Below, in pieces: positions 11,255 through 20,976 of a stretch of DNA of 45,466 nucleotides. Both the position numbers and the translations under genes were made by a program. The notes under the pieces are model-generated. The model saw nothing but the letters and a program-made list of their open reading frames with translations. It had not been told where the DNA came from and made no database searches. Positions within the stretch are counted from its first letter, which is position 1. Each line of letters starts with the position of its first letter. This DNA comes from a virus (lineage: Duplodnaviria; Heunggongvirae; Uroviricota; Caudoviricetes), in the IMG/VR virus record IMGVR_UViG_2609459834_000005; one strand, written 5' to 3'.

Positions 11255-14200
11255 TACCGATATGCTCCACTTAACCGACCACCATCACGGGCCTGCTGTT
11301 GCATAAAGTCCGCTGCCGCTTTTTTCCCGAGGTCATAAACCGCCTTCAGGGCAGCCGGACCTATCTGCCCGTTCGTGCCATCGTTATTGATCTCGATGTT
11401 GTACTGCGGGGAAAACATCGCCATACCTGACCCCCCAATATCCGCCACAACCCCCAGCTTACCGTCAGCACCACGACGCAATGGCAGAATGGCTTCAGGT
11501 CCCGCTTCCCCCATCACACCCGCGCCTTTTGCAAAAGCAAAAAACGTCGGACGGTTAACCACCGTGCCACTGTAACGACTCAAATCAGCAGACTGATAAA
11601 TCCCCCCATTGGCATTCAGGGAAAGGCTGCTGAGATCAAATCCCAGTACACTGCCAATCCCTTTTATCGATTTCATCATGGTTGCCTGCGCCAGGATTTT
11701 CGCCATATCTGACAGCACAGAAGAGGTGAAGGATTTGAAATTGAGTTTGCCGGTAGTGACAAAAGTTGCCAGGCCATTTCCCATGTTGCTGAAGGCTGAC
11801 GAGAACACCTGTTCTGCTGTTTCTGCCGTATTATCTGCATCCACGGTAAAATCCTGAAATGCACGCAGGACTCCGTTTTTCCAGTTACCCTGCACAACTT
11901 CAAGCTGTTGCCAGTAACGGCGATTCTCATTCAGTTGTCGGTTCAGGCTCTCCGTCAGCGCCTGCTCGGCCTTTCTGTAGTCATCCGTGTTATATGTCCC
12001 TTTCTGCTCACTATCCCGCCTCAACTGCTCCAGCTGTTGCTGGTATTTCTGGCGAAGACTCAGTTGTACCTGATATCGCTGTCGCTGCTGATCACCCATA
12101 CCCACCGTGGCGATATCCAGGTCATGTTGCTGACGCTGAGCGCGCTCTTCTTCAGCCAGTTGACTGGTCAGCTGAATTGTTTTTTTCTTCAGCTCGTTGA
12201 GTGCCGTCTGTTTCTGAAGCTCCTGCTGTTTTACATCCAGCAGCGTCAGTGCCTGAATCAGTTCATCTTTACGGGTCAGCACACTCTTTTCATCTGCCGT
12301 CAGTTTTTTCCCGTCCAGGTCGCTGATGCGCTGCTGCAGAGCCAGAAGCTGTTTATGCGCTTCTGTCATCCTTTCCGTGGCAATGCCTGCTGACTGTCTG
12401 GCAGCAGCAATCTGTCCTTCCACCTGTGCCTGTTGCTGACTGTACTGCAGCAATAACCGGGTGGCCTCATCATTACGGGTTTCGCGTGTTTTTTTCTTAC
12501 CGGATGCCAGGGCTTTCTCGTAACGTTCATTTTCACGTTGTATCGCCGCATCCCTGACAGCCTGATCGGCGTACTGCATGGCATTAATACGCGCAATTTC
12601 ACGCTGATGTCGTGCTGCTTCCGTTTCATTCATCCGGTTCAGTGCAGCATTTTCAGCATTACGTCGTTTCTGTTGCTCCTGATAATTCCGCTCTGCCTGC
12701 TCTTTTGCATCCTGCAAATCCTTCTGGCGTTTTTTCTCCTGAAGATCGTTAAGACGCTGCTGATCGTATTCAACCTGAGAAGATGATGCCGTCCAGGGGA
12801 GTCTTTTCGCCCGCGACACTTTCTCCTGTAAAGCGGCAATCTGTTCATCCAGCGAGTCTTCACGACCAATATTCATGGCCGCATCCCAGAAACGACTCCA
12901 CAAATCAGACAGATACTTCAGCGTACTGCCAAGCGCATTGAGGTTATTATCAATATCCGCAGTACGCCGACCGGTTTCCTCTGCCAGTGCAGACATGGCT
13001 ATCCGTGCAGCATCACTGGACCGTCCCTGATCCCCAAGGACACGTATCTGCTCAAGCTGAGTGGCAGTAAGAAAATGCAGCTCATTGTCCAGAGCCTTCG
13101 CGGCATTTACAGGATCATCCTTCAGCCGCTTAAACTGATTTATGGTATCGCTGACCGACTGGCCAACCGATCGCTCCATCTGTGCGGCAGCTCTCGCCAC
13201 CATACCGATATCGTTTCCACGAAATGCACCACTCCCCACCACCTGAGCCATCGCACCGGCTGCAGCATGTTGCGTGATACCATTCCCGGAAATAGCACGA
13301 CTGAGCGTCCACAGCTGCCCGGCAGTGACTCCGGCATAATGCCCCGTCAGCGACAACTGGCGGTTAAATTCTTCCCCCTCCTTCTGACCGTCATACCAGG
13401 CTTTACCCAGACCATAGACGGCCGCGGCAATACCGCCAATAACCCCGCCAAGCATCATGCCTTTCGGTGACATCAGTGTGTCTATCCATCCGGCACGGTT
13501 AGCCAGCGTTATCCCGGATCCCCTCAGCGCCCCTAAATTGCCGCGGGCCAGTTCACCTATCAGAACGCCTATCTCCTGGCGGGCTGCTGCACTTTTCAGA
13601 CCCAGCGAATGCGTGGCTTTTCCTGCCTGCTCCATTTTGCGGATATACACTTCTGCAGCACTGCTTACCCCCAGCTGGGCTGCCTTAGCACGAAGCAACT
13701 CAGAAGATGAAAGATTCAGGCGGGTTGCCTGCTCTTTAAGCTGACGGATAAACGCCACTTTCTGTCGGGTAGCCTCTTCCTCAGCCTGTGTAAGAACACG
13801 GGTTTTCGCAGTAACCTCAGAAATCAGCGCCAGATAATCCTGCTGACCAATCCCGCCACTGTTTCTGGCCTGTCGGATCTGCTGCTGAATACGCTGTAAT
13901 TCCTGCAGCCCCGCACTGGCCTGTTTCACACTGTCAATCTGACGATAAAACGCAGCAGCCGCTTTATCCTGAGCCTCCGCCAGAGCCATGGCCTGCGCCT
14001 GTTCCTCGCGCATTTTCTGGCTCAGTGCCTCCATGCGCTGGCGGGTTTTCTCCACCTCGCGGGCCATGCGTTCATGAGCCTGTGCGTTCTTCTCCACCGT
14101 CTGCGCATGGACGGATGCGGCTGTTGCAGCCGAAGAAGCTGCCTGCGTTGTCTGCCGGGCGGCCTGAGTCTGACGCTCCATAAAACGCTGCATACGGGCA

Positions 14201-14319
14201 GAAGACCGTTCTGCATCGCTGGCTGCACCATTCAGAAGGTTTTTGATACGGGGAATTTCATTTTTAAACTCTGCCGCATCAATCCCCAAATCAATGACCA
14301 GGTTGGCTATCTGGTCCAT
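11254..14319 (-). CDS. H: tail tape measure protein H
   Basis: Long coiled-coil-rich ORF with lambda H-like C-terminus (NDGTNGQIGPAALKAVYD); start set at ATG 14319 preceded by GGAGGTG (track ORF starts at TTG 14349). Confidence 0.85.
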   Translation of the reverse strand: MDQIANLVIDLGIDAAEFKNEIPRIKNLLNGAASDAERSSARMQRFMERQTQAARQTTQAASSAATAASVHAQTVEKNAQAHERMAREVEKTRQRMEALSQKMREEQAQAMALAEAQDKAAAAFYRQIDSVKQASAGLQELQRIQQQIRQARNSGGIGQQDYLALISEVTAKTRVLTQAEEEATRQKVAFIRQLKEQATRLNLSSSELLRAKAAQLGVSSAAEVYIRKMEQAGKATHSLGLKSAAARQEIGVLIGELARGNLGALRGSGITLANRAGWIDTLMSPKGMMLGGVIGGIAAAVYGLGKAWYDGQKEGEEFNRQLSLTGHYAGVTAGQLWTLSRAISGNGITQHAAAGAMAQVVGSGAFRGNDIGMVARAAAQMERSVGQSVSDTINQFKRLKDDPVNAAKALDNELHFLTATQLEQIRVLGDQGRSSDAARIAMSALAEETGRRTADIDNNLNALGSTLKYLSDLWSRFWDAAMNIGREDSLDEQIAALQEKVSRAKRLPWTASSSQVEYDQQRLNDLQEKKRQKDLQDAKEQAERNYQEQQKRRNAENAALNRMNETEAARHQREIARINAMQYADQAVRDAAIQRENERYEKALASGKKKTRETRNDEATRLLLQYSQQQAQVEGQIAAARQSAGIATERMTEAHKQLLALQQRISDLDGKKLTADEKSVLTRKDELIQALTLLDVKQQELQKQTALNELKKKTIQLTSQLAEEERAQRQQHDLDIATVGMGDQQRQRYQVQLSLRQKYQQQLEQLRRDSEQKGTYNTDDYRKAEQALTESLNRQLNENRRYWQQLEVVQGNWKNGVLRAFQDFTVDADNTAETAEQVFSSAFSNMGNGLATFVTTGKLNFKSFTSSVLSDMAKILAQATMMKSIKGIGSVLGFDLSSLSLNANGGIYQSADLSRYSGTVVNRPTFFAFAKGAGVMGEAGPEAILPLRRGADGKLGVVADIGGSGMAMFSPQYNIEINNDGTNGQIGPAALKAVYDLGKKAAADFMQQQARDGGRLSGAYR

Positions 14320-15015
14320 AACGCACACCTCCGGAAATACCTTCCCCAAGATGCATCAGTTCTTCGTCCGTTCGCTCCGGTATCCCGTTCTCTTCCGGTA
14401 AAAGGCTGAAATCAGCCACCGCAGCATCACTGCTGCCGGACACCATTCTCACGATCAATGCCTTCAGCGAGGCAAACTGCGCATCCATCCACACATCACT
14501 GAAGCTCTGCATCCGGAAATAATCGCCCCACTCACCAAGCTCAGTGGCCGACATTTCCGACAGCATCCGCCGCCAGTCTGCCCGCCGGAACTCCCGGGCA
14601 AGCCGCATGACAAACTGCATTTCCCGCGTCAGGACTTTTCCGGCGTCAGCGCCTCATGCTCATCATCCACGGCATTATCAATGGCCCCCATACCGCTCAG
14701 CGACAGAACCATCTCCGCCCCCGCACCCAGGGCATCATACGACCATGTTGTAATAACGGATGCGCAAAGCGTCTCTACATCCTTAGACTGATCCGCATTC
14801 CACAGTGAGCGGGAAACCAGCCAGGCATTGATATCCATCCCCATCCGCAGAAAAGCAATCTGTCGTTCAGCCTCCGGCAGTTCTCCCTCCCCGGCATCAA
14901 ACTTTGCCGTTCGCTGCTGAACAAACGTCAGATATTCAATTCTCTGCAGCCCGGACAGCTCACTGAGCACCACGGACTGTTTTTCATAATTAAACGTGTC
15001 CTGTTTCAGAAACAT
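14291..15015 (-). CDS. T: tail assembly chaperone GT fusion (needs a -1 ribosomal frameshift near plus 14635-14641)
   Basis: T frame (track ORF 14291..14620) is -1 relative to G and open only from ~14653 downward; conserved G/T arrangement upstream of H. Confidence 0.6.
14629..15015 (-). CDS. G: tail assembly chaperone G
   Basis: ORF starting MFLKQ (lambda G starts MFLK), SD GGTGGAGA upstream; stop at 14629. Confidence 0.8.
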   Translation of the reverse strand: MFLKQDTFNYEKQSVVLSELSGLQRIEYLTFVQQRTAKFDAGEGELPEAERQIAFLRMGMDINAWLVSRSLWNADQSKDVETLCASVITTWSYDALGAGAEMVLSLSGMGAIDNAVDDEHEALTPEKS

Positions 15016-15075
15016 CATGTTCTCCACCTGCAAAAAAGCCCCGAATAACCGGGGCAAATGATGAGTATCGTCCTG

Positions 15076-15819
15076 TTAACCTGCTGCGCTGACAGTCACC
15101 GCAGTCACAGCCACAAAATTCCCGTCAGCGGTCATGCCCACAATGCTGACACTGCCCTGCTTCACGCCTTTTACCGTGGCCACAAGTCCGTTCAGGGTAA
15201 CCGTGGCAGTCTGTGGATCTGACGAATGCACACTGATCGCTTTGTCACTGGCTCCGTCAGGTTTTACTGTAAAGGTCAGCGTGGTGGTTGCTCCCACTTT
15301 TACACTGGCAGACGCCGGTGATACTGTCAGCCCGGTAACGCTCACGGTTTCAGTGCCTTCCTCTGCCAGATACGGACGCCCCACACCGCTGATTTTCACA
15401 GTGCGGGTCATCACGTCTTTTGAGGCAATGGTTTTACCCAGTGAGCTCAGCCAGCCACGGAAAACATCAACAGTGCCGTTGGGATATTTGATACGAAACG
15501 CGCAGACTTCACCGGAGTCGAACAACTGAACCAGTTTTTTCTGCCCGCTGTCACCCGGACGCCAGGCCAGCGTCGCCGAAGTATCACCAACGGATTTCTG
15601 CCCCTGGGTTGTCGTTTTCCAGTCTGCATCTTCATCATCGAGATAAGTGTCATCTTCTGCATCAGCGGTCATTTCGCCAGGTTGCAGATCCTTCACCATC
15701 GCAAGACGCAGCCAGTCAGTGTCCGACAAAGGGTTCGCAAACGCATCGCCGTTGCCGGTATACATCCAGAACGTCGTCCCCGCACCTTTCGTCTTTGCCA
15801 GTGGATTTGGTGTGGTCAT
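15076..15819 (-). CDS. V: major tail protein V with C-terminal Ig-like domain
   Basis: Lambda V-like; ATG at 15819 preceded by AGGAGGTG. Confidence 0.9.
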   Translation of the reverse strand: MTTPNPLAKTKGAGTTFWMYTGNGDAFANPLSDTDWLRLAMVKDLQPGEMTADAEDDTYLDDEDADWKTTTQGQKSVGDTSATLAWRPGDSGQKKLVQLFDSGEVCAFRIKYPNGTVDVFRGWLSSLGKTIASKDVMTRTVKISGVGRPYLAEEGTETVSVTGLTVSPASASVKVGATTTLTFTVKPDGASDKAISVHSSDPQTATVTLNGLVATVKGVKQGSVSIVGMTADGNFVAVTAVTVSAAG

Positions 15820-17495: not shown

Positions 17496-19454
17496 TTACG
17501 CCGTACATTTCACCAGGCCGCGGTGATCAACTGGCGCAACACCAGCGTCAATACGCACTTTCGTTGTCACGCCATCCACACTGAAGCCCTCCATCTGATC
17601 AATATATGGCGTATCCACACCGTTGAGATAAGCCACTTCAATCGTATCGGAGCCTTTGGACGCAGCCAGGTAGAAGGTGGTCTGGCTGTTATCATCAAGA
17701 CGAGGCTCTGCAATAACGGTCGCAAAATCTTTCACCGGGTTAATAATACCGGCGTTAATGTCAGCCCCCTTGACACTTGAGGAGCGAATGACCTGGTTAG
17801 CAACAGACTCCATCGCCGTCGGTACCAGTACGAACGCAGGACGAATATTCAGATGACGCTCACCCTCTTTCTGAACGCGCATCAACTGGCGGGCTTTATC
17901 CAGCGATGCCACGTCCATTGCCGCGCTCTCCAGTACGTTTGCATGTTTCGCTTTATCGAACAGACTTACATTATCTGTGGAGATTTTCGGGTTAGACGTC
18001 AGAATGGCATAAACCAGATCGGCAATAGTGGATTTCGCCGCACGGCCCAGCTTCATCGGGACATCGGTCAGCATATTCAGATCATCATTGATAATGGCCT
18101 GACGGGTGATACTGAACAGCTCGCCATAGGTCGCCAGTGCAATAGTGGCCTGTTTATCTCCGGTGGTGACGTATTTATATTCTGCCCCTTCACGCACCTG
18201 ACGCAGAGCACTGAAGCCCCCCATACCCACACGATGGGCAATTTTAAAATCAGACAACTGACCTTTCCGCGTCCACTGTTCATAGGTTTCAGGGGCATCT
18301 TCCCAGCCCTGCAGAATGGCTTTGTTCGCAACATCCAGCAGAATATTACCGAAGTCAGACGTACTGTGTGTGAACGCCGCACCGACCATCTGCATCGGGT
18401 TATAACTGGAAACACCAATACCACGTTCAGTCAGTGACATACGGGCATATTCACGCAGGGTCATCCCGTTGTAGACATTATCACGTTCAGTTTTTTCAAA
18501 CCCGGCGCGCGCCATCAGCGCCTGGCGGATCCCGTCCCCCACAAAATTACCGTTACCGGCATAAATATGAGCCGGGGTATTTTTATTGGATGGCGTGGAC
18601 TCGCGCCCCATCTCGTTCAACAGCTTTTCGCGGGCCTGCTCCAGCGAACATTCAGGATCGGCAAGACACTGAGCCTGCAACGACTGATAACGCCCGCCAA
18701 ACATGGCAAACAGATCATTAATACCGTTTACACGCGCTTTTTGCTCTGCCAGGACCTGCGCACGGATGCTGTTTTCATCCACCACGGGTGCTGCTGCCTG
18801 CACTGGCGTCCGGGAGGCTGCAGGTCCATCATCCTGTACGCGTGGAGCACTGTTGCGTGGCGGAGTAATCATATTTCGAATGGATTCCGGCATCTTTTTA
18901 AATTCCTCTGTACGTTTTGACTGAATACATGCCATTGCCTTAACGGCTGGTGTCACCTGATCAGCAAATCCCTGTGCCAGACATTCGGCACCGGACATCC
19001 AGGTCTCATCCGCCAGCATGGCAGCAATTTCATCGGTGGTTTTCCCGGTTTTCTGTGCATAAGCGGGTAACAGAACCGCCTCAACTTTATCGAGCAGGTC
19101 GGCATAGGTGCGCATGTCCTCCGCATCACCGCCCGTAAAGCCAAATGGTTTATGAATCATCATGAAGGAGTTTTCCGGCATAATGACCGGGTTTCCCACC
19201 ATCGCAATGACCGACGCCATTGACGCCGCCACACCGTCGACATAAACGGTAATGGACGCACCATGTGTTTTCAGTGCATTAAAAATGGCGATGCCTTCAA
19301 AGACATCGCCACCCGGTGAATTAATATGGAGATTAATGTGGGTGATATCGCCCAGTGCATTCAGATCACTGATAAACTGCTTCGCCGTAACACCCCAGAA
19401 ACCAATCTCGTCATAAATATAAATATCCGCGTCACTCTGGTGACCTGCCTGCAT
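17496..19454 (-). CDS. prohead protease (ClpP-like) / scaffold / major capsid fusion protein
   Basis: N-terminal ClpP-like motifs, Ala/Pro-rich linker, capsid-like C-terminal half; start set at ATG 19454 just after portal stop. Confidence 0.75.
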   Translation of the reverse strand: MQAGHQSDADIYIYDEIGFWGVTAKQFISDLNALGDITHINLHINSPGGDVFEGIAIFNALKTHGASITVYVDGVAASMASVIAMVGNPVIMPENSFMMIHKPFGFTGGDAEDMRTYADLLDKVEAVLLPAYAQKTGKTTDEIAAMLADETWMSGAECLAQGFADQVTPAVKAMACIQSKRTEEFKKMPESIRNMITPPRNSAPRVQDDGPAASRTPVQAAAPVVDENSIRAQVLAEQKARVNGINDLFAMFGGRYQSLQAQCLADPECSLEQAREKLLNEMGRESTPSNKNTPAHIYAGNGNFVGDGIRQALMARAGFEKTERDNVYNGMTLREYARMSLTERGIGVSSYNPMQMVGAAFTHSTSDFGNILLDVANKAILQGWEDAPETYEQWTRKGQLSDFKIAHRVGMGGFSALRQVREGAEYKYVTTGDKQATIALATYGELFSITRQAIINDDLNMLTDVPMKLGRAAKSTIADLVYAILTSNPKISTDNVSLFDKAKHANVLESAAMDVASLDKARQLMRVQKEGERHLNIRPAFVLVPTAMESVANQVIRSSSVKGADINAGIINPVKDFATVIAEPRLDDNSQTTFYLAASKGSDTIEVAYLNGVDTPYIDQMEGFSVDGVTTKVRIDAGVAPVDHRGLVKCTA

Positions 19455-19467
19455 CCTGAACCAGGAA

Positions 19468-20976
19468 TTATTCTTCGGACTGGTCGTCGGTGTGCTGCGG
19501 CTCCTGTCGTTTCGTTGCGGCACTGCTGCCTCCTTTATCACTGGCCGGATCGGTATCAAATACCAGATCCAGCTTGCGGTTTTCATCAATTTCGGCCTTG
19601 CGCCGACGTTTGACATCATCCGGATTACGACCACCTGCACGTACCCAGTCTGATTCTGTCGCCGCTCCACCACGAATCTGAATTTTCCAGGCCTCAGCCT
19701 CCTTAACAGGGTCAATCCACGGCATCACCGGTCCGGAATACACCGCGGTATACAGTGAAGATCGGTCCAGATCGCGGGGTAGCCTGATAACACCGGATGC
19801 CACAGCCTGTTTCAGCCAGGCACGGTACATCGGGCGGGTGACGGCACCAATAAACCAGTCCTGCAGGATCAGGTAGCCATCAGTAGATTCAACCAGCTCC
19901 TGACGCTGGGCGCTGTAAGTGCCGTTATAGTTGCGCGCTGTACTGGAAAAACTCAGACGACTGCCCGCAGCCACGGCACGCAACTGACCATTACGAAAAG
20001 TTTCAAGGTTAGGATTGGGGCGATCCGACTTCACCATTCCGATTTCTTCGCCGGGTTTCAGATCGTCGTAAATAATGCCTGGCTGAATGGTAAGCTCGCG
20101 TTCATTCTCCTTGCTGTCATTACCATCCGTTTCATAGCTCTGTCCGTCGCCTTTCCGGATGTACATCCCCAGAGCAGCGGCGATCCTTGCTGCAGTCAGC
20201 TCAGAATCTTCATACTCTTTCAGAGCACTGAGGCGGATCAGCACACCGGACAACAAAGACGTCCCGCGCATCTGGTGCAGACGGCGAACAAATTTAAGAT
20301 GCAGCATTCGCTCTGCATCCACTTCTTTGGTTTCCATCTGCCGCCCGGATACGGGACGGCTTTTATACACCAGATATTTTTCGGGACGCCCCCAGTCATC
20401 AACAAACACGCCCTGATTCAGCCTGTTGCTCTCATCACTGGTCATGGGAATAAAGTCCGGCTCGAGCGCCTCCAGCCAGAAATGAACACCGGCAGAAGGC
20501 GTCAGGCTGTTTATGCGCCCGGAAACCATCTGGGCAAACACCTCACCATCGCGCAGCCAGGTACGCAGCATCAGACGTTCCAGCATCGGACGGGTAAACT
20601 GCCCGGTGACCTCCGGACTGACAGACCATTCACTCCATCGGGTACGTATCTCCGCTGCCAGATCACGGGCAATGGCCCCATTGCGTAATACCGGATGTGG
20701 CTCGACAATAATCCCGTTTTTCCCCACCACCCGTTCTTCCAGCTTGTCAAATACACCAATGACCAGATCGTGGTTGTCATCAAGGTAACGGGCCTGCTCA
20801 CGTAACGACACGGCCCCGTACTGGCTTAACTGGTCGGCAGTTCGGCTCTCCCGTCGGGCTTTGTGTGTCCGCGTCGTTTTTACGGCCTCATAAGCCTGGA
20901 TCACCGCACGGGAACGCAGCCTTGCCGCTTTCCATCCTGGTGAAAAAACGCCAATCACATCATCAAGAATTGCCAT
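19468..20976 (-). CDS. portal protein
   Basis: ~500-aa ORF between gpW-like and protease-capsid genes; start at ATG 20976 overlapping W stop. Confidence 0.85.
   Translation of the reverse strand: MAILDDVIGVFSPGWKAARLRSRAVIQAYEAVKTTRTHKARRESRTADQLSQYGAVSLREQARYLDDNHDLVIGVFDKLEERVVGKNGIIVEPHPVLRNGAIARDLAAEIRTRWSEWSVSPEVTGQFTRPMLERLMLRTWLRDGEVFAQMVSGRINSLTPSAGVHFWLEALEPDFIPMTSDESNRLNQGVFVDDWGRPEKYLVYKSRPVSGRQMETKEVDAERMLHLKFVRRLHQMRGTSLLSGVLIRLSALKEYEDSELTAARIAAALGMYIRKGDGQSYETDGNDSKENERELTIQPGIIYDDLKPGEEIGMVKSDRPNPNLETFRNGQLRAVAAGSRLSFSSTARNYNGTYSAQRQELVESTDGYLILQDWFIGAVTRPMYRAWLKQAVASGVIRLPRDLDRSSLYTAVYSGPVMPWIDPVKEAEAWKIQIRGGAATESDWVRAGGRNPDDVKRRRKAEIDENRKLDLVFDTDPASDKGGSSAATKRQEPQHTDDQSEE

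What the first reader, a model, noticed from the sequence alone, without database searches (positions are those of the whole stretch)
14629..14655. G/T programmed -1 frameshift confined to a ~21-nt window with an atypical slip site
The T frame is -1 relative to G and is closed by a TGA only ~8 codons upstream of the G stop, so the shift must occur within GCGCTGACGCCGGAAAAGTCC. That stretch contains GGAAAAG, but phased as CCG|GAA|AAG in the G frame rather than lambda's G|GGA|AAG. The slip would rely mainly on tRNA-Lys AAG to AAA re-pairing.
Basis: partly seen in the sequence, partly recalled or inferred. Interest (0 to 1): 0.5.

Follow-up and report, generated by a model that had tools for sequence, protein, structure and literature searches.

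The report
Phage tail chaperone G/T frameshift site
This is the usual lambda-type tail-assembly G/GT programmed -1 ribosomal frameshift of an mEp460/cdtI-like E. coli prophage; its GGAAAAG slip site looks odd next to lambda's but is the commonest version in this gene family and was already marked as the slip site in phage N15.

Summary
The genes lie on the minus strand. G (Pfam Phage_TAC_2) ends at TGA 14631-14629. The T frame (Pfam Phage_tail_T) is -1 and is closed upstream by TGA 14656-14654. That leaves 22 nt in which to shift. The only slip motif there is GGAAAAG (14641-14635), phased CCG|GAA|AAG.

Comparison with 26 lineages of lambda-like G/T pairs puts the shift on this heptamer:
- G_GAA_AAG sits at the homologous, in-phase spot in 19 lineages. 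G_GGA_AAG (lambda type) is in 4, G_GCA_AAA in 2 and G_GGA_AAA in 1.
- T-frame amino-acid conservation starts at the codon right after the heptamer.
- 8 lineages have no start codon for a separate T.
- The overlap shrinks to 13 nt in two lineages.
- Heptamer base 1, a synonymous site, is G in all 26, so P-site re-pairing of tRNA-Glu (GAA to GGA, central G.U) also appears to be selected, not only tRNA-Lys.

No conserved downstream RNA structure or upstream SD-like element was found.

The N15 GenBank record already annotates GGAAAAG as the slippery sequence. This is therefore an unannotated member of a known kind, and interest is low. One point remains open: biochemists use G GAA AAG as a poorly slippery control.

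The parts
14629..15018 (-). Gene G, the tail assembly chaperone. Candidate starts are ATG 15018 and ATG 15015. The second gives the conserved MFLK N-terminus and sits 6 nt after GGAG. The stop is TGA at 14631-14629.
   Evidence: Pfam Phage_TAC_2, E 3.8e-40, and phrog_42, E 8e-52. Annotated as G or minor tail protein in mEp460, PhiR55_1 and Ayreon.
14635..14641 (-). Slip heptamer G_GAA_AAG. Zero-frame codons are (CC)G GAA AAG. After a -1 slip the tRNAs face GGA AAA.
   Evidence: It is the only slip-type motif in the 22-nt overlap. It is conserved in phase in 19 of 26 lineages, and a G_GNA_AAR heptamer occupies the same spot in all 26. The identical heptamer is annotated as the slippery sequence in N15.
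14654..14656 (-). TGA in the -1 (T) frame. It sets the upstream limit of where the shift can happen.
14629..14631 (-). G stop codon TGA, one codon after the heptamer. It sets the downstream limit of the shift window.
14291..14635 (-). T-frame part of the predicted GT fusion. It starts by re-reading G at 14635 as the first base of GTC and runs through 114 codons to the stop at 14293-14291. The predicted GT is join(15015..14635, 14635..14291), 241 aa, with junction ...ALTPEK|VLTREMQF...
   Evidence: Pfam Phage_tail_T, E 5e-15, and phrog_39, E 8e-43. The fusion is colinear with lambda gpGT (UniProt P03735), E 9e-43, and K|V aligns with lambda's K|V.
14618..14620 (-). The ATG that public annotations use as an independent start for T. 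It is probably not the way T is made.
   Evidence: It is annotated as the start in mEp460 and PhiR55_1. An ATG at this position occurs in only 2 of 26 lineages, conserved T residues (VLTRE) lie upstream of it, and the only SD-like bases (GGGAA) abut it directly.
14652..14655 (-). GAGG, a weak SD-like tetramer 10 nt upstream of the heptamer. It is a possible minor stimulator and is not conserved across the family.
   Evidence: Anti-SD duplex energy is -5.6 kcal/mol, matched or beaten by 11% of 8-mers in the same gene. Other lineages are inconsistent.
15076..15819 (-). Major tail tube gene (lambda V-like), directly upstream of G.
   Evidence: Pfam Phage_TTP_12, E 5e-67, plus Big_2.
11254..14319 (-). 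Tape measure gene (lambda H-like), directly downstream. It overlaps the 3' end of T by 29 nt.
   Evidence: Pfam TMP_2, Tape_meas_lam_C and TMP_4. The start is placed as in mEp460.

Best explanation
A few percent or fewer of the ribosomes translating gene G slip back one base on G_GAA_AAG (14641-14635). Peptidyl-tRNA-Glu is on GAA and Lys-tRNA-Lys is on AAG. Both re-pair in the -1 frame.

- tRNA-Lys moves from AAG to AAA, which is a better match for its modified U34.
- tRNA-Glu moves from GAA to GGA. It keeps G:C at codon position 1 and A:U at position 3, with a G.U at the centre.
- Translation then continues with GTC CTG ACG... This gives a 241-aa G-T fusion (...ALTPEK|VLTREMQF...) alongside abundant 128-aa G.

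By homology with lambda, the G part binds the tape measure protein and the T part recruits the tail tube protein, so the slip rate fixes the G:GT ratio.

Shown here: the frame geometry, the homology, and the comparative conservation that places the shift on the heptamer. Inferred: that slippage happens at all in this clade, its efficiency, and that both tRNAs contribute.
For: - Synteny is V - G - T(-1) - H, with lambda-family Pfam domains on all four genes.
- The shift window is 22 nt here and only 13 nt in Providencia heimbachae L070 and Edwardsiella L052. In both, it still contains the heptamer.
- A G_GNA_AAR heptamer is in phase at the homologous site in 26 of 26 lineages clustered at 90% nt identity: G_GAA_AAG 19, G_GGA_AAG 4, G_GCA_AAA 2, G_GGA_AAA 1.
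- The heptamer is the information peak of the junction alignment.
- -1 frame codons upstream of the heptamer are unconserved. Conservation (V/A-L-x-x-E-L-x-F-x-x-x-L-A-R-E-F) starts at the very next codon.
- 8 of 26 lineages have no ATG, GTG or TTG between the heptamer and LAREF.
- Synonymous choices are skewed in the direction slippage needs. Base 1 is G in 26 of 26 across CCG, GCG, CTG, TTG, ATG, GTG and ACG (background 0.378). Lys is AAG in 23 of 26 (background 0.31). Glu is GAA in 19 of 19 (background 0.58).
- The fusion aligns colinearly with lambda gpGT, and the junctions coincide.
- N15 annotates the same heptamer as the slippery sequence, and the Gifsy-2 homolog is annotated as part of a frameshift hybrid.
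- In E. coli, A_AAG is the most shift-prone tetramer (PMC4066793).
Against: - No experiment exists for this clade or, as far as I could find, for any G_GAA_AAG phage site.
- In a reconstituted E. coli system, G GAA AAG was chosen as the unfavourable control and gave mainly 0-frame product at every EF-G concentration (PMC6924986).
- The A_AAG tetramer alone gives only about 0.15% without a stimulator.
- I found no conserved stimulator. RNAalifold on 26 lineages gives -1.25 kcal/mol with no covariation. Folds of the window's own sequence are not better than shuffles (z -0.96 and 0.09). SD-like elements are inconsistent.
- The two G_GCA_AAA lineages show that the P-site match can be poor.
- The lineages are related, so the conservation counts are not independent events.
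Confidence: 0.85

Rival explanations
1. Same GT fusion, but made by slippage of tRNA-Lys alone on the A_AAG tetramer. The GAA-decoding tRNA contributes nothing, and the upstream G is conserved for some other reason.
For: - tRNA-Glu on GGA has a second-position mismatch, and Peng et al. class G GAA AAG as a 'one tRNA can slip' site.
- Two lineages use G_GCA_AAA, where P-site re-pairing would be poor.
- A_AAG is the best tetramer in E. coli.
- In 5 of 26 lineages the G stop codon directly follows the heptamer. That could favour slippage of a single P-site tRNA while the A site waits for a release factor (the mechanism is from my own knowledge).
Against: - Heptamer base 1 is a four-fold synonymous site in most lineages and lies upstream of anything translated in the T frame. 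It is nonetheless G in 26 of 26 lineages, across seven different codons, against a 38% background.
- Base 2 is also always G.
- A pure tetramer model predicts that both positions are free to vary.
Confidence: 0.1
2. T is made as a separate 109-aa protein from ATG 14620, for example by re-initiation of ribosomes that terminate at the G stop 8 nt upstream, as public annotations imply. No frameshift is needed.
For: - An ATG lies 8 nt after the G stop.
- All 17 near-identical phage records list a T gene separate from G, and the three I opened (mEp460, Ayreon, PhiR55_1) call T as a stand-alone CDS rather than a join.
- The exact-sequence lookup found no annotated EK-junction fusion.
Against: - An ATG at that position occurs in only 2 of 26 lineages, and 8 lineages have no start codon at all before LAREF.
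- Conserved T residues precede it.
- The only SD-like bases abut the ATG directly.
- Heptamer conservation and the codon skews would be left unexplained.
- In lambda, T is known only as part of gpGT (Levin et al. 1993, cited from memory and via PMC5009743).
Confidence: 0.04
3. The T frame is a decaying remnant in a defective prophage and is not expressed.
For: The window is a prophage-like element, and prophages often decay.
Against: - The T frame is intact for 113 codons and has a full-length Phage_tail_T match.
- The same module is 99% identical in viable phages such as mEp460, Ayreon and Tritos.
Confidence: 0.01

Closest known systems
Phage lambda G/GT programmed -1 frameshift (Levin, Hendrix and Casjens 1993; Xu, Hendrix and Duda 2004, 2013, 2014; gpGT is UniProt P03735)
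   Same: - Gene order V-G-T-H.
- Same Pfam families on G and T.
- T is in the -1 frame with no start of its own.
- The heptamer sits at the homologous codon positions, and the K|V junction aligns.
- No conserved downstream structure was found in the family alignment, which includes lambda.
   Different: - The heptamer is G_GAA_AAG rather than G_GGA_AAG, so the P-site tRNA is tRNA-Glu with a central G.U after the slip, instead of tRNA-Gly with full pairing.
- The overlap is 22 nt against 61 nt in lambda.
- Protein identity to lambda is only 34%.
- The lambda event is experimentally proven. This one is not.
Phage N15 genes 14/15 (GenBank NC_001901, misc_feature 'slippery sequence for -1 translational frameshift')
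   Same: Identical heptamer GGAAAAG in the identical phase (GCG GAA AAG), at the homologous position of a homologous G/T pair.
   Different: - N15 is a different lineage, and the E-site codon is GCG rather than CCG.
- The overlap is 34 nt.
- The N15 assignment is itself a sequence-based prediction, as far as I could establish.
Gifsy-2 STM1039 / STM1041.1n (annotated 'part of G+G' frameshift hybrid protein')
   Same: It is the closest divergent relative, at 54.5% identity to the GT fusion. It has the identical junction CCG GAA AAG TCC TGA.
   Different: The overlap is 28 nt, and there is no in-frame start codon at all before LAREF.
Non-canonical bacterial -1 sites that depend on tRNA-Lys at A_AAG (B. 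subtilis cdd and IS1222 CGA_AAG; dnaX A_AAA_AAG)
   Same: The A-site AAG to AAA re-pairing of tRNA-Lys is the main driver. In the CGA_AAG sites the P-site re-pairing is imperfect. (The cdd paper appears in the reference list seen. IS1222 and the pairing details are from my own knowledge.)
   Different: Those sites rely on defined stimulators, an upstream SD and/or a downstream stem-loop or pseudoknot. None was detected here.

Membership tests
Lambda-type tail assembly chaperone G/GT -1 frameshift module | Two ORFs lie between the major tail tube gene and the tape measure gene. | tested here: met
   V-like (Phage_TTP_12) at 15819-15076, then G, then T, then H-like (TMP_2, Tape_meas_lam_C) at 14319-11254.
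Lambda-type tail assembly chaperone G/GT -1 frameshift module | The upstream ORF is homologous to gpG. | tested here: met
   Pfam PF06894 Phage_TAC_2, E 3.8e-40, covering profile positions 1-123 of 126.
Lambda-type tail assembly chaperone G/GT -1 frameshift module | The downstream ORF is homologous to gpT, lies in the -1 frame, overlaps the 3' end of G and has no conserved start of its own. | tested here: met
   PF06223 Phage_tail_T, E 5e-15. The frame is -1 in all 159 loci examined. The ATG is not conserved.
Lambda-type tail assembly chaperone G/GT -1 frameshift module | A canonical X_XXY_YYZ slippery heptamer lies in the overlap. | tested here: not met
   G_GAA_AAG has XXY = GAA, so the first triplet is not homopolymeric. 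This feature defines the canonical motif, not the family: 19 of 26 lineages lack it.
Lambda-type tail assembly chaperone G/GT -1 frameshift module | A GT fusion protein is made at a low, fixed ratio to G. | not testable with these tools
   This needs western blotting, mass spectrometry, a reporter assay or ribosome profiling.
N15-type GGAAAAG slip site | GGAAAAG is phased NNG GAA AAG at the codon positions homologous to lambda's G GGA AAG. | tested here: met
   Window 14641-14635. The N15 misc_feature at 10027-10033 is GGAAAAG in the phase GCG GAA AAG.
dnaX / IS-type stimulated -1 frameshift signals | A downstream stem-loop or pseudoknot 5-9 nt after the heptamer, and/or an SD-like element 10-14 nt upstream. 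| tested here: not met
   No fold is better than shuffles. There is no conserved or covarying structure. There is no Rfam match. Only a weak, non-conserved GAGG lies 10 nt upstream.

The most novel reading that the evidence does not exclude
G_GAA_AAG is used by ribosome biochemists as the poorly slippery 'one-tRNA' control. Yet it appears to be the predominant, and perhaps ancestral, natural frameshift signal of lambda-like G/GT genes. It has interconverted with G_GGA_AAG at least three times, and its first base is under purifying selection.

If so, one of two things follows. Either a central G.U in the P-site codon-anticodon helix is well tolerated in vivo, or these phages run tail assembly at a much lower GT:G ratio than lambda's roughly 1:30. 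The second case might be helped by an unrecognised stimulator such as the conserved E-x-x-x-(P/A/L)-E-K nascent peptide or the nearby stop codon.
Probability: 0.4. Interest if true: 0.4.

Novelty: new member of a known kind. Interest (0 to 1): 0.22.

Why it matters
There are two practical consequences.

1. **Annotation.** The three near-identical phage records I opened (mEp460, Ayreon, PhiR55_1) call T as a stand-alone gene from a non-conserved ATG or from one further downstream. An exact-sequence lookup found no E-K-junction GT fusion for this clade in about 15 billion proteins. The GT product should be annotated as join(15015..14635, 14635..14291).

2. **Frameshift prediction.** The family-wide rule found here is G_GNA_AAR, not X_XXY_YYZ. 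Predictors that require the canonical heptamer will miss most lambda-like G/T frameshifts.

Scientifically the finding is modest. It offers a natural series of heptamers in one homologous context (G_GAA_AAG, G_GGA_AAG, G_GCA_AAA, G_GGA_AAA). That series could be used to measure how much P-site mismatch a bacterial -1 site tolerates, and how the G:GT ratio is tuned.

Tried and rejected
- **Downstream stimulatory RNA structure.** Folding the 60 and 100 nt after the heptamer gave z-scores of 0.09 and -0.96 against shuffles. Per-lineage folds show a recurrent hairpin about 33 nt downstream. It lies over the conserved LAREFGRPDWR codons, is too far away to act at the ribosome entrance, and is different in the window. 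RNAalifold on 26 lineages gave -1.25 kcal/mol, four pairs and no covariation. Rejected.
- **Upstream SD-like stimulator.** Anti-SD duplex energies 6-16 nt upstream are inconsistent across lineages. The window has only GAGG (-5.6 kcal/mol, at the 11% level of its own gene). Not conserved, at most a minor local contributor.
- **Known RNA families.** Rfam hits in 14250-15100 were all far below the gathering scores.
- **Independent initiation of T.** Rejected on conservation.
- **Transcriptional slippage.** The A run is only 4 nt, too short for RNA polymerase slippage (established knowledge). Not pursued.
- **Reduced variability around the slip site within the close clade** (89 loci, 57 unique sequences). 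There are 3 variable sites in the 60 nt from -15 to +44, against about 0.10-0.16 per site elsewhere. That is too weak to claim.
- **A pre-existing fused GT annotation for this clade.** The exact lookup found none with the E-K junction. One 'TPGKVL' fused ORF in a Logan assembly turned out to carry an extra C in a C run.
- **Literature.** Xu et al. 2004 (Mol Cell) is not held. No open-access paper in the library discusses GGAAAAG as a phage tail slip site. The PRFect supplement held nothing relevant.

Full report
**What is in the sequence**

The finding lies on the minus strand of an mEp460/cdtI-like lambdoid prophage. The 851-nt G/T region is 97-99.9% identical to 17 phage records, and the left 25 kb of the window matches the mEp460-type structural module. 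Read 5' to 3' on the minus strand, the gene order is:
- a lambda-V-like tail tube gene at 15819-15076 (Phage_TTP_12, E 5e-67);
- an intrinsic terminator hairpin at 15055-15038, followed by a T run;
- gene G at 15018/15015-14629 (Phage_TAC_2, E 3.8e-40);
- a T reading frame running to 14291 (Phage_tail_T, E 5e-15; phrog_39, E 8e-43);
- a tape measure gene at 14319-11254 (TMP_2, Tape_meas_lam_C).

**Check of the observation**

G ends ...CAT GAG GCG CTG ACG CCG GAA AAG TCC TGA, with the stop at 14631-14629. The T frame is the -1 frame. It reads ...gCA TGA GGC GCT GAC GCC GGA AAA GTC CTG ACG CGG GAA ATG..., with TGA at 14656-14654, and is then open for 113 codons. A ribosome must therefore change frame within 22 nt (14653-14632). 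The only slip-type motif there is GGAAAAG at 14641-14635, phased CCG|GAA|AAG. Lambda has GCG|GGA|AAG.

The heptamer by itself is common, with 13 copies in the window against 7.7 expected. The case rests on comparison with relatives.

**Comparative evidence**

I collected three sets of G/T junctions:
- eleven loci from annotated phage records;
- 74 loci from one-genome-per-species bacterial contigs, at 32-100% identity to the GT fusion;
- 80 IMG/VR contigs at 91-100% identity.

T is in the -1 frame in every analysable locus. Clustering the 120 nt downstream of the slip at 90% identity gives 26 lineages. An in-phase heptamer occupies the homologous position in all of them:

| Heptamer | Lineages | Examples |
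|---|---|---|
| G_GAA_AAG | 19 | this window, Gifsy-2, N15/HK225, the phi80/mEp213 group; prophages of Citrobacter, Kosakonia, Kluyvera, Atlantibacter, Enterobacter, Trabulsiella, Klebsiella, Sodalis, Providencia |
| G_GGA_AAG | 4 | lambda, E. albertii, Serratia/Symbiopectobacterium, Edwardsiella |
| G_GCA_AAA + TAG | 2 | Kluyvera, Ewingella |
| G_GGA_AAA + TAG | 1 | Providencia rustigianii |

The 'atypical' heptamer is therefore the majority form. In a neighbour-joining tree of the GT proteins, the lambda-type heptamer appears on at least three separate branches. The two forms differ by one transition and have evidently interconverted repeatedly.

**Where the shift occurs**

Four results place the shift on the heptamer.
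- The permitted window shrinks to 13 nt in Providencia heimbachae (A TCA CTG GAA AAG TAG) and in Edwardsiella. In five lineages the G stop codon directly abuts the heptamer. The only element common to all the windows is the heptamer.
- In the junction alignment the heptamer is the information peak against a variable upstream linker.
- Translated in the T frame, the codons upstream of the heptamer are unconserved. From the first codon after it, the sequence is conserved across all lineages (V/A-L-x-x-E-L-x-F-x-x-x-L-A-R-E-F).
- The predicted fusion (241 aa...ALTPEK|VLTREMQF...) aligns colinearly with lambda gpGT (UniProt P03735) at E 9e-43, and its K|V lies on lambda's K|V.

**Independent start for T?**

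Public records call T from ATG 14620, or from a later ATG. An ATG at that position exists in only 2 of 26 lineages. Eight lineages, including the closest divergent relative Gifsy-2, have no ATG, GTG or TTG anywhere between the heptamer and LAREF. Conserved T residues also lie upstream of the ATG.

**How the slip most likely works**

After a -1 slip, tRNA-Lys moves from AAG to AAA. This is the classic E. coli driver. A_AAG is by far the most shift-prone tetramer, at 5.6% with a strong pseudoknot but only about 0.15% alone (Sharma et al. 2014, PMC4066793). The P-site tRNA-Glu would move from GAA to GGA, leaving a central G.U.

Heptamer base 1 is the third position of the preceding codon. It is synonymous in G and lies upstream of anything translated in T. 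Yet it is G in 26 of 26 lineages, across seven different codons (CCG, GCG, CTG, TTG, ATG, GTG, ACG). G occupies only 37.8% of comparable third positions in the same genes. The neighbouring codon's third position varies freely. Lys is AAG in 23 of 26 lineages (background 31%), and Glu is GAA in 19 of 19 (background 58%).

The lineages are related, so these are not independent trials. But the first two positions of that codon have changed repeatedly while the third has not. I infer that the G:C pair at the first position of the shifted P-site codon is under selection. That makes this a two-tRNA slip with one tolerated G.U, and the family rule G_GNA_AAR. PRFect's authors proposed the same tRNA-Glu GAA-to-GGA G.U re-pairing for other phage motifs (PMC10885494). 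The G_GCA_AAA lineages show that the P-site match can be worse, so a tRNA-Lys-only model keeps some weight.

**Stimulators**

I found none.
- Folds of the window's own downstream sequence are no better than shuffles.
- There is no conserved or covarying structure across the 26 lineages.
- There is no Rfam match.
- SD-like sequences upstream are inconsistent. The window has only a weak GAGG 10 nt upstream.

From memory, lambda's site likewise lacks a defined structural stimulator.

**What counts against the model**

There is no experiment for this clade. In a reconstituted E. coli system, Peng et al. 2019 (PMC6924986) chose G GAA AAG as the unfavourable counterpart of G GGA AAG. They saw mainly 0-frame product at every EF-G concentration. 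Either the in vivo context raises the efficiency, or these phages work with a lower GT:G ratio than lambda. This is the one open and mildly interesting point.

**Comparison with what is known**

The module meets the defining features of the lambda G/GT system except for the strict X_XXY_YYZ form of the heptamer, and most family members lack that form too. The same heptamer, in the same phase, is already annotated as 'slippery sequence for -1 translational frameshift' in the N15 GenBank record. The Gifsy-2 homolog is annotated as half of a frameshift hybrid. I could not read Xu et al. 2004. The open-access library holds no discussion of GGAAAAG as a phage slip site.

For this clade no joined GT is annotated. 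The three near-identical phage records I opened (mEp460, Ayreon, PhiR55_1) call T as a stand-alone CDS. No protein with the E-K junction was found among about 15 billion sequences. The single fused ORF found, in a Logan assembly, is due to an extra C in a C run, in a contig that also splits the tape measure gene.

**Verdict**

This is an unannotated member of a known kind, and interest is low (0.22). The practical value lies in annotation and in frameshift-prediction rules.

Noticed in passing
L054-L067 and L076-L079 (genome-contig hits): G/T junction sequences identical to phage lambda turn up on short, mostly very low-coverage contigs of unrelated genome assemblies (Neobacillus, Oceanobacillus, Pseudomonas, Kitasatospora, Chromatium, Shewanella, Leeuwenhoekiella, Paenibacillus, Enterococcus, Pseudoxanthomonas, Psychrobacter). 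This is almost certainly lambda DNA contamination or spike-in, not real prophages.
   Followed up: partly
L166 (Logan ERR14102340 contig), position about 688: A single public contig encodes G and T as one ORF (...TPGKVL...) because of an extra C in the CC run just before the heptamer (ACGCCCGGAAAAG). The tape measure gene is also split in that contig, so this looks like a homopolymer sequencing error rather than a natural in-frame GT mutant.
   Followed up: yes
window 15032-15055 (-): An intrinsic-terminator-like hairpin, GCCCCGGTTATTCGGGGC followed by TTTTTT, lies between the tail tube gene V and gene G. mEp460, Ayreon and N15 annotate a terminator at the same place. It may lower G/T/H transcription relative to V.
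   Followed up: partly
window about 14326-14291 (-), at the T/H junction: Among 57 unique close relatives, variability jumps from about 0.1 per site to nearly every site starting about 315 nt after the heptamer. That is where the tape measure gene starts (ATG 14319, overlapping T by 29 nt). It looks like a mosaic recombination boundary that joins one G/T module to several H alleles.
   Followed up: no
window 14653-14655 (-), and the homologous codon in the other lineages: The codon four places upstream of the E-site codon is an acidic GAR (Glu) in nearly all 26 lineages, although the surrounding linker is highly variable. This gives a conserved E-x-x-x-(P/A/L)-(E/G/A)-K tail on G. I cannot say whether this is a protein requirement, a nascent-peptide effect or a weak rRNA contact.
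   Followed up: no
L019, L021, L036, L053, L070: In five of 26 lineages the G stop codon (TAG) directly follows the heptamer (AAG TAG or AAA TAG). This includes all three lineages that use AAA instead of AAG. An adjacent stop may compensate for a weaker heptamer.
   Followed up: no
window 17496-19715 (-): A single 739-aa ORF lies here. From reading its translation, it appears to join a ClpP/S49-like prohead protease or scaffold region to an HK97-fold major capsid region. Relatives annotate the region variously as 'protease/scaffold protein' and 'major head protein'. I ran no domain search on it.
   Followed up: no
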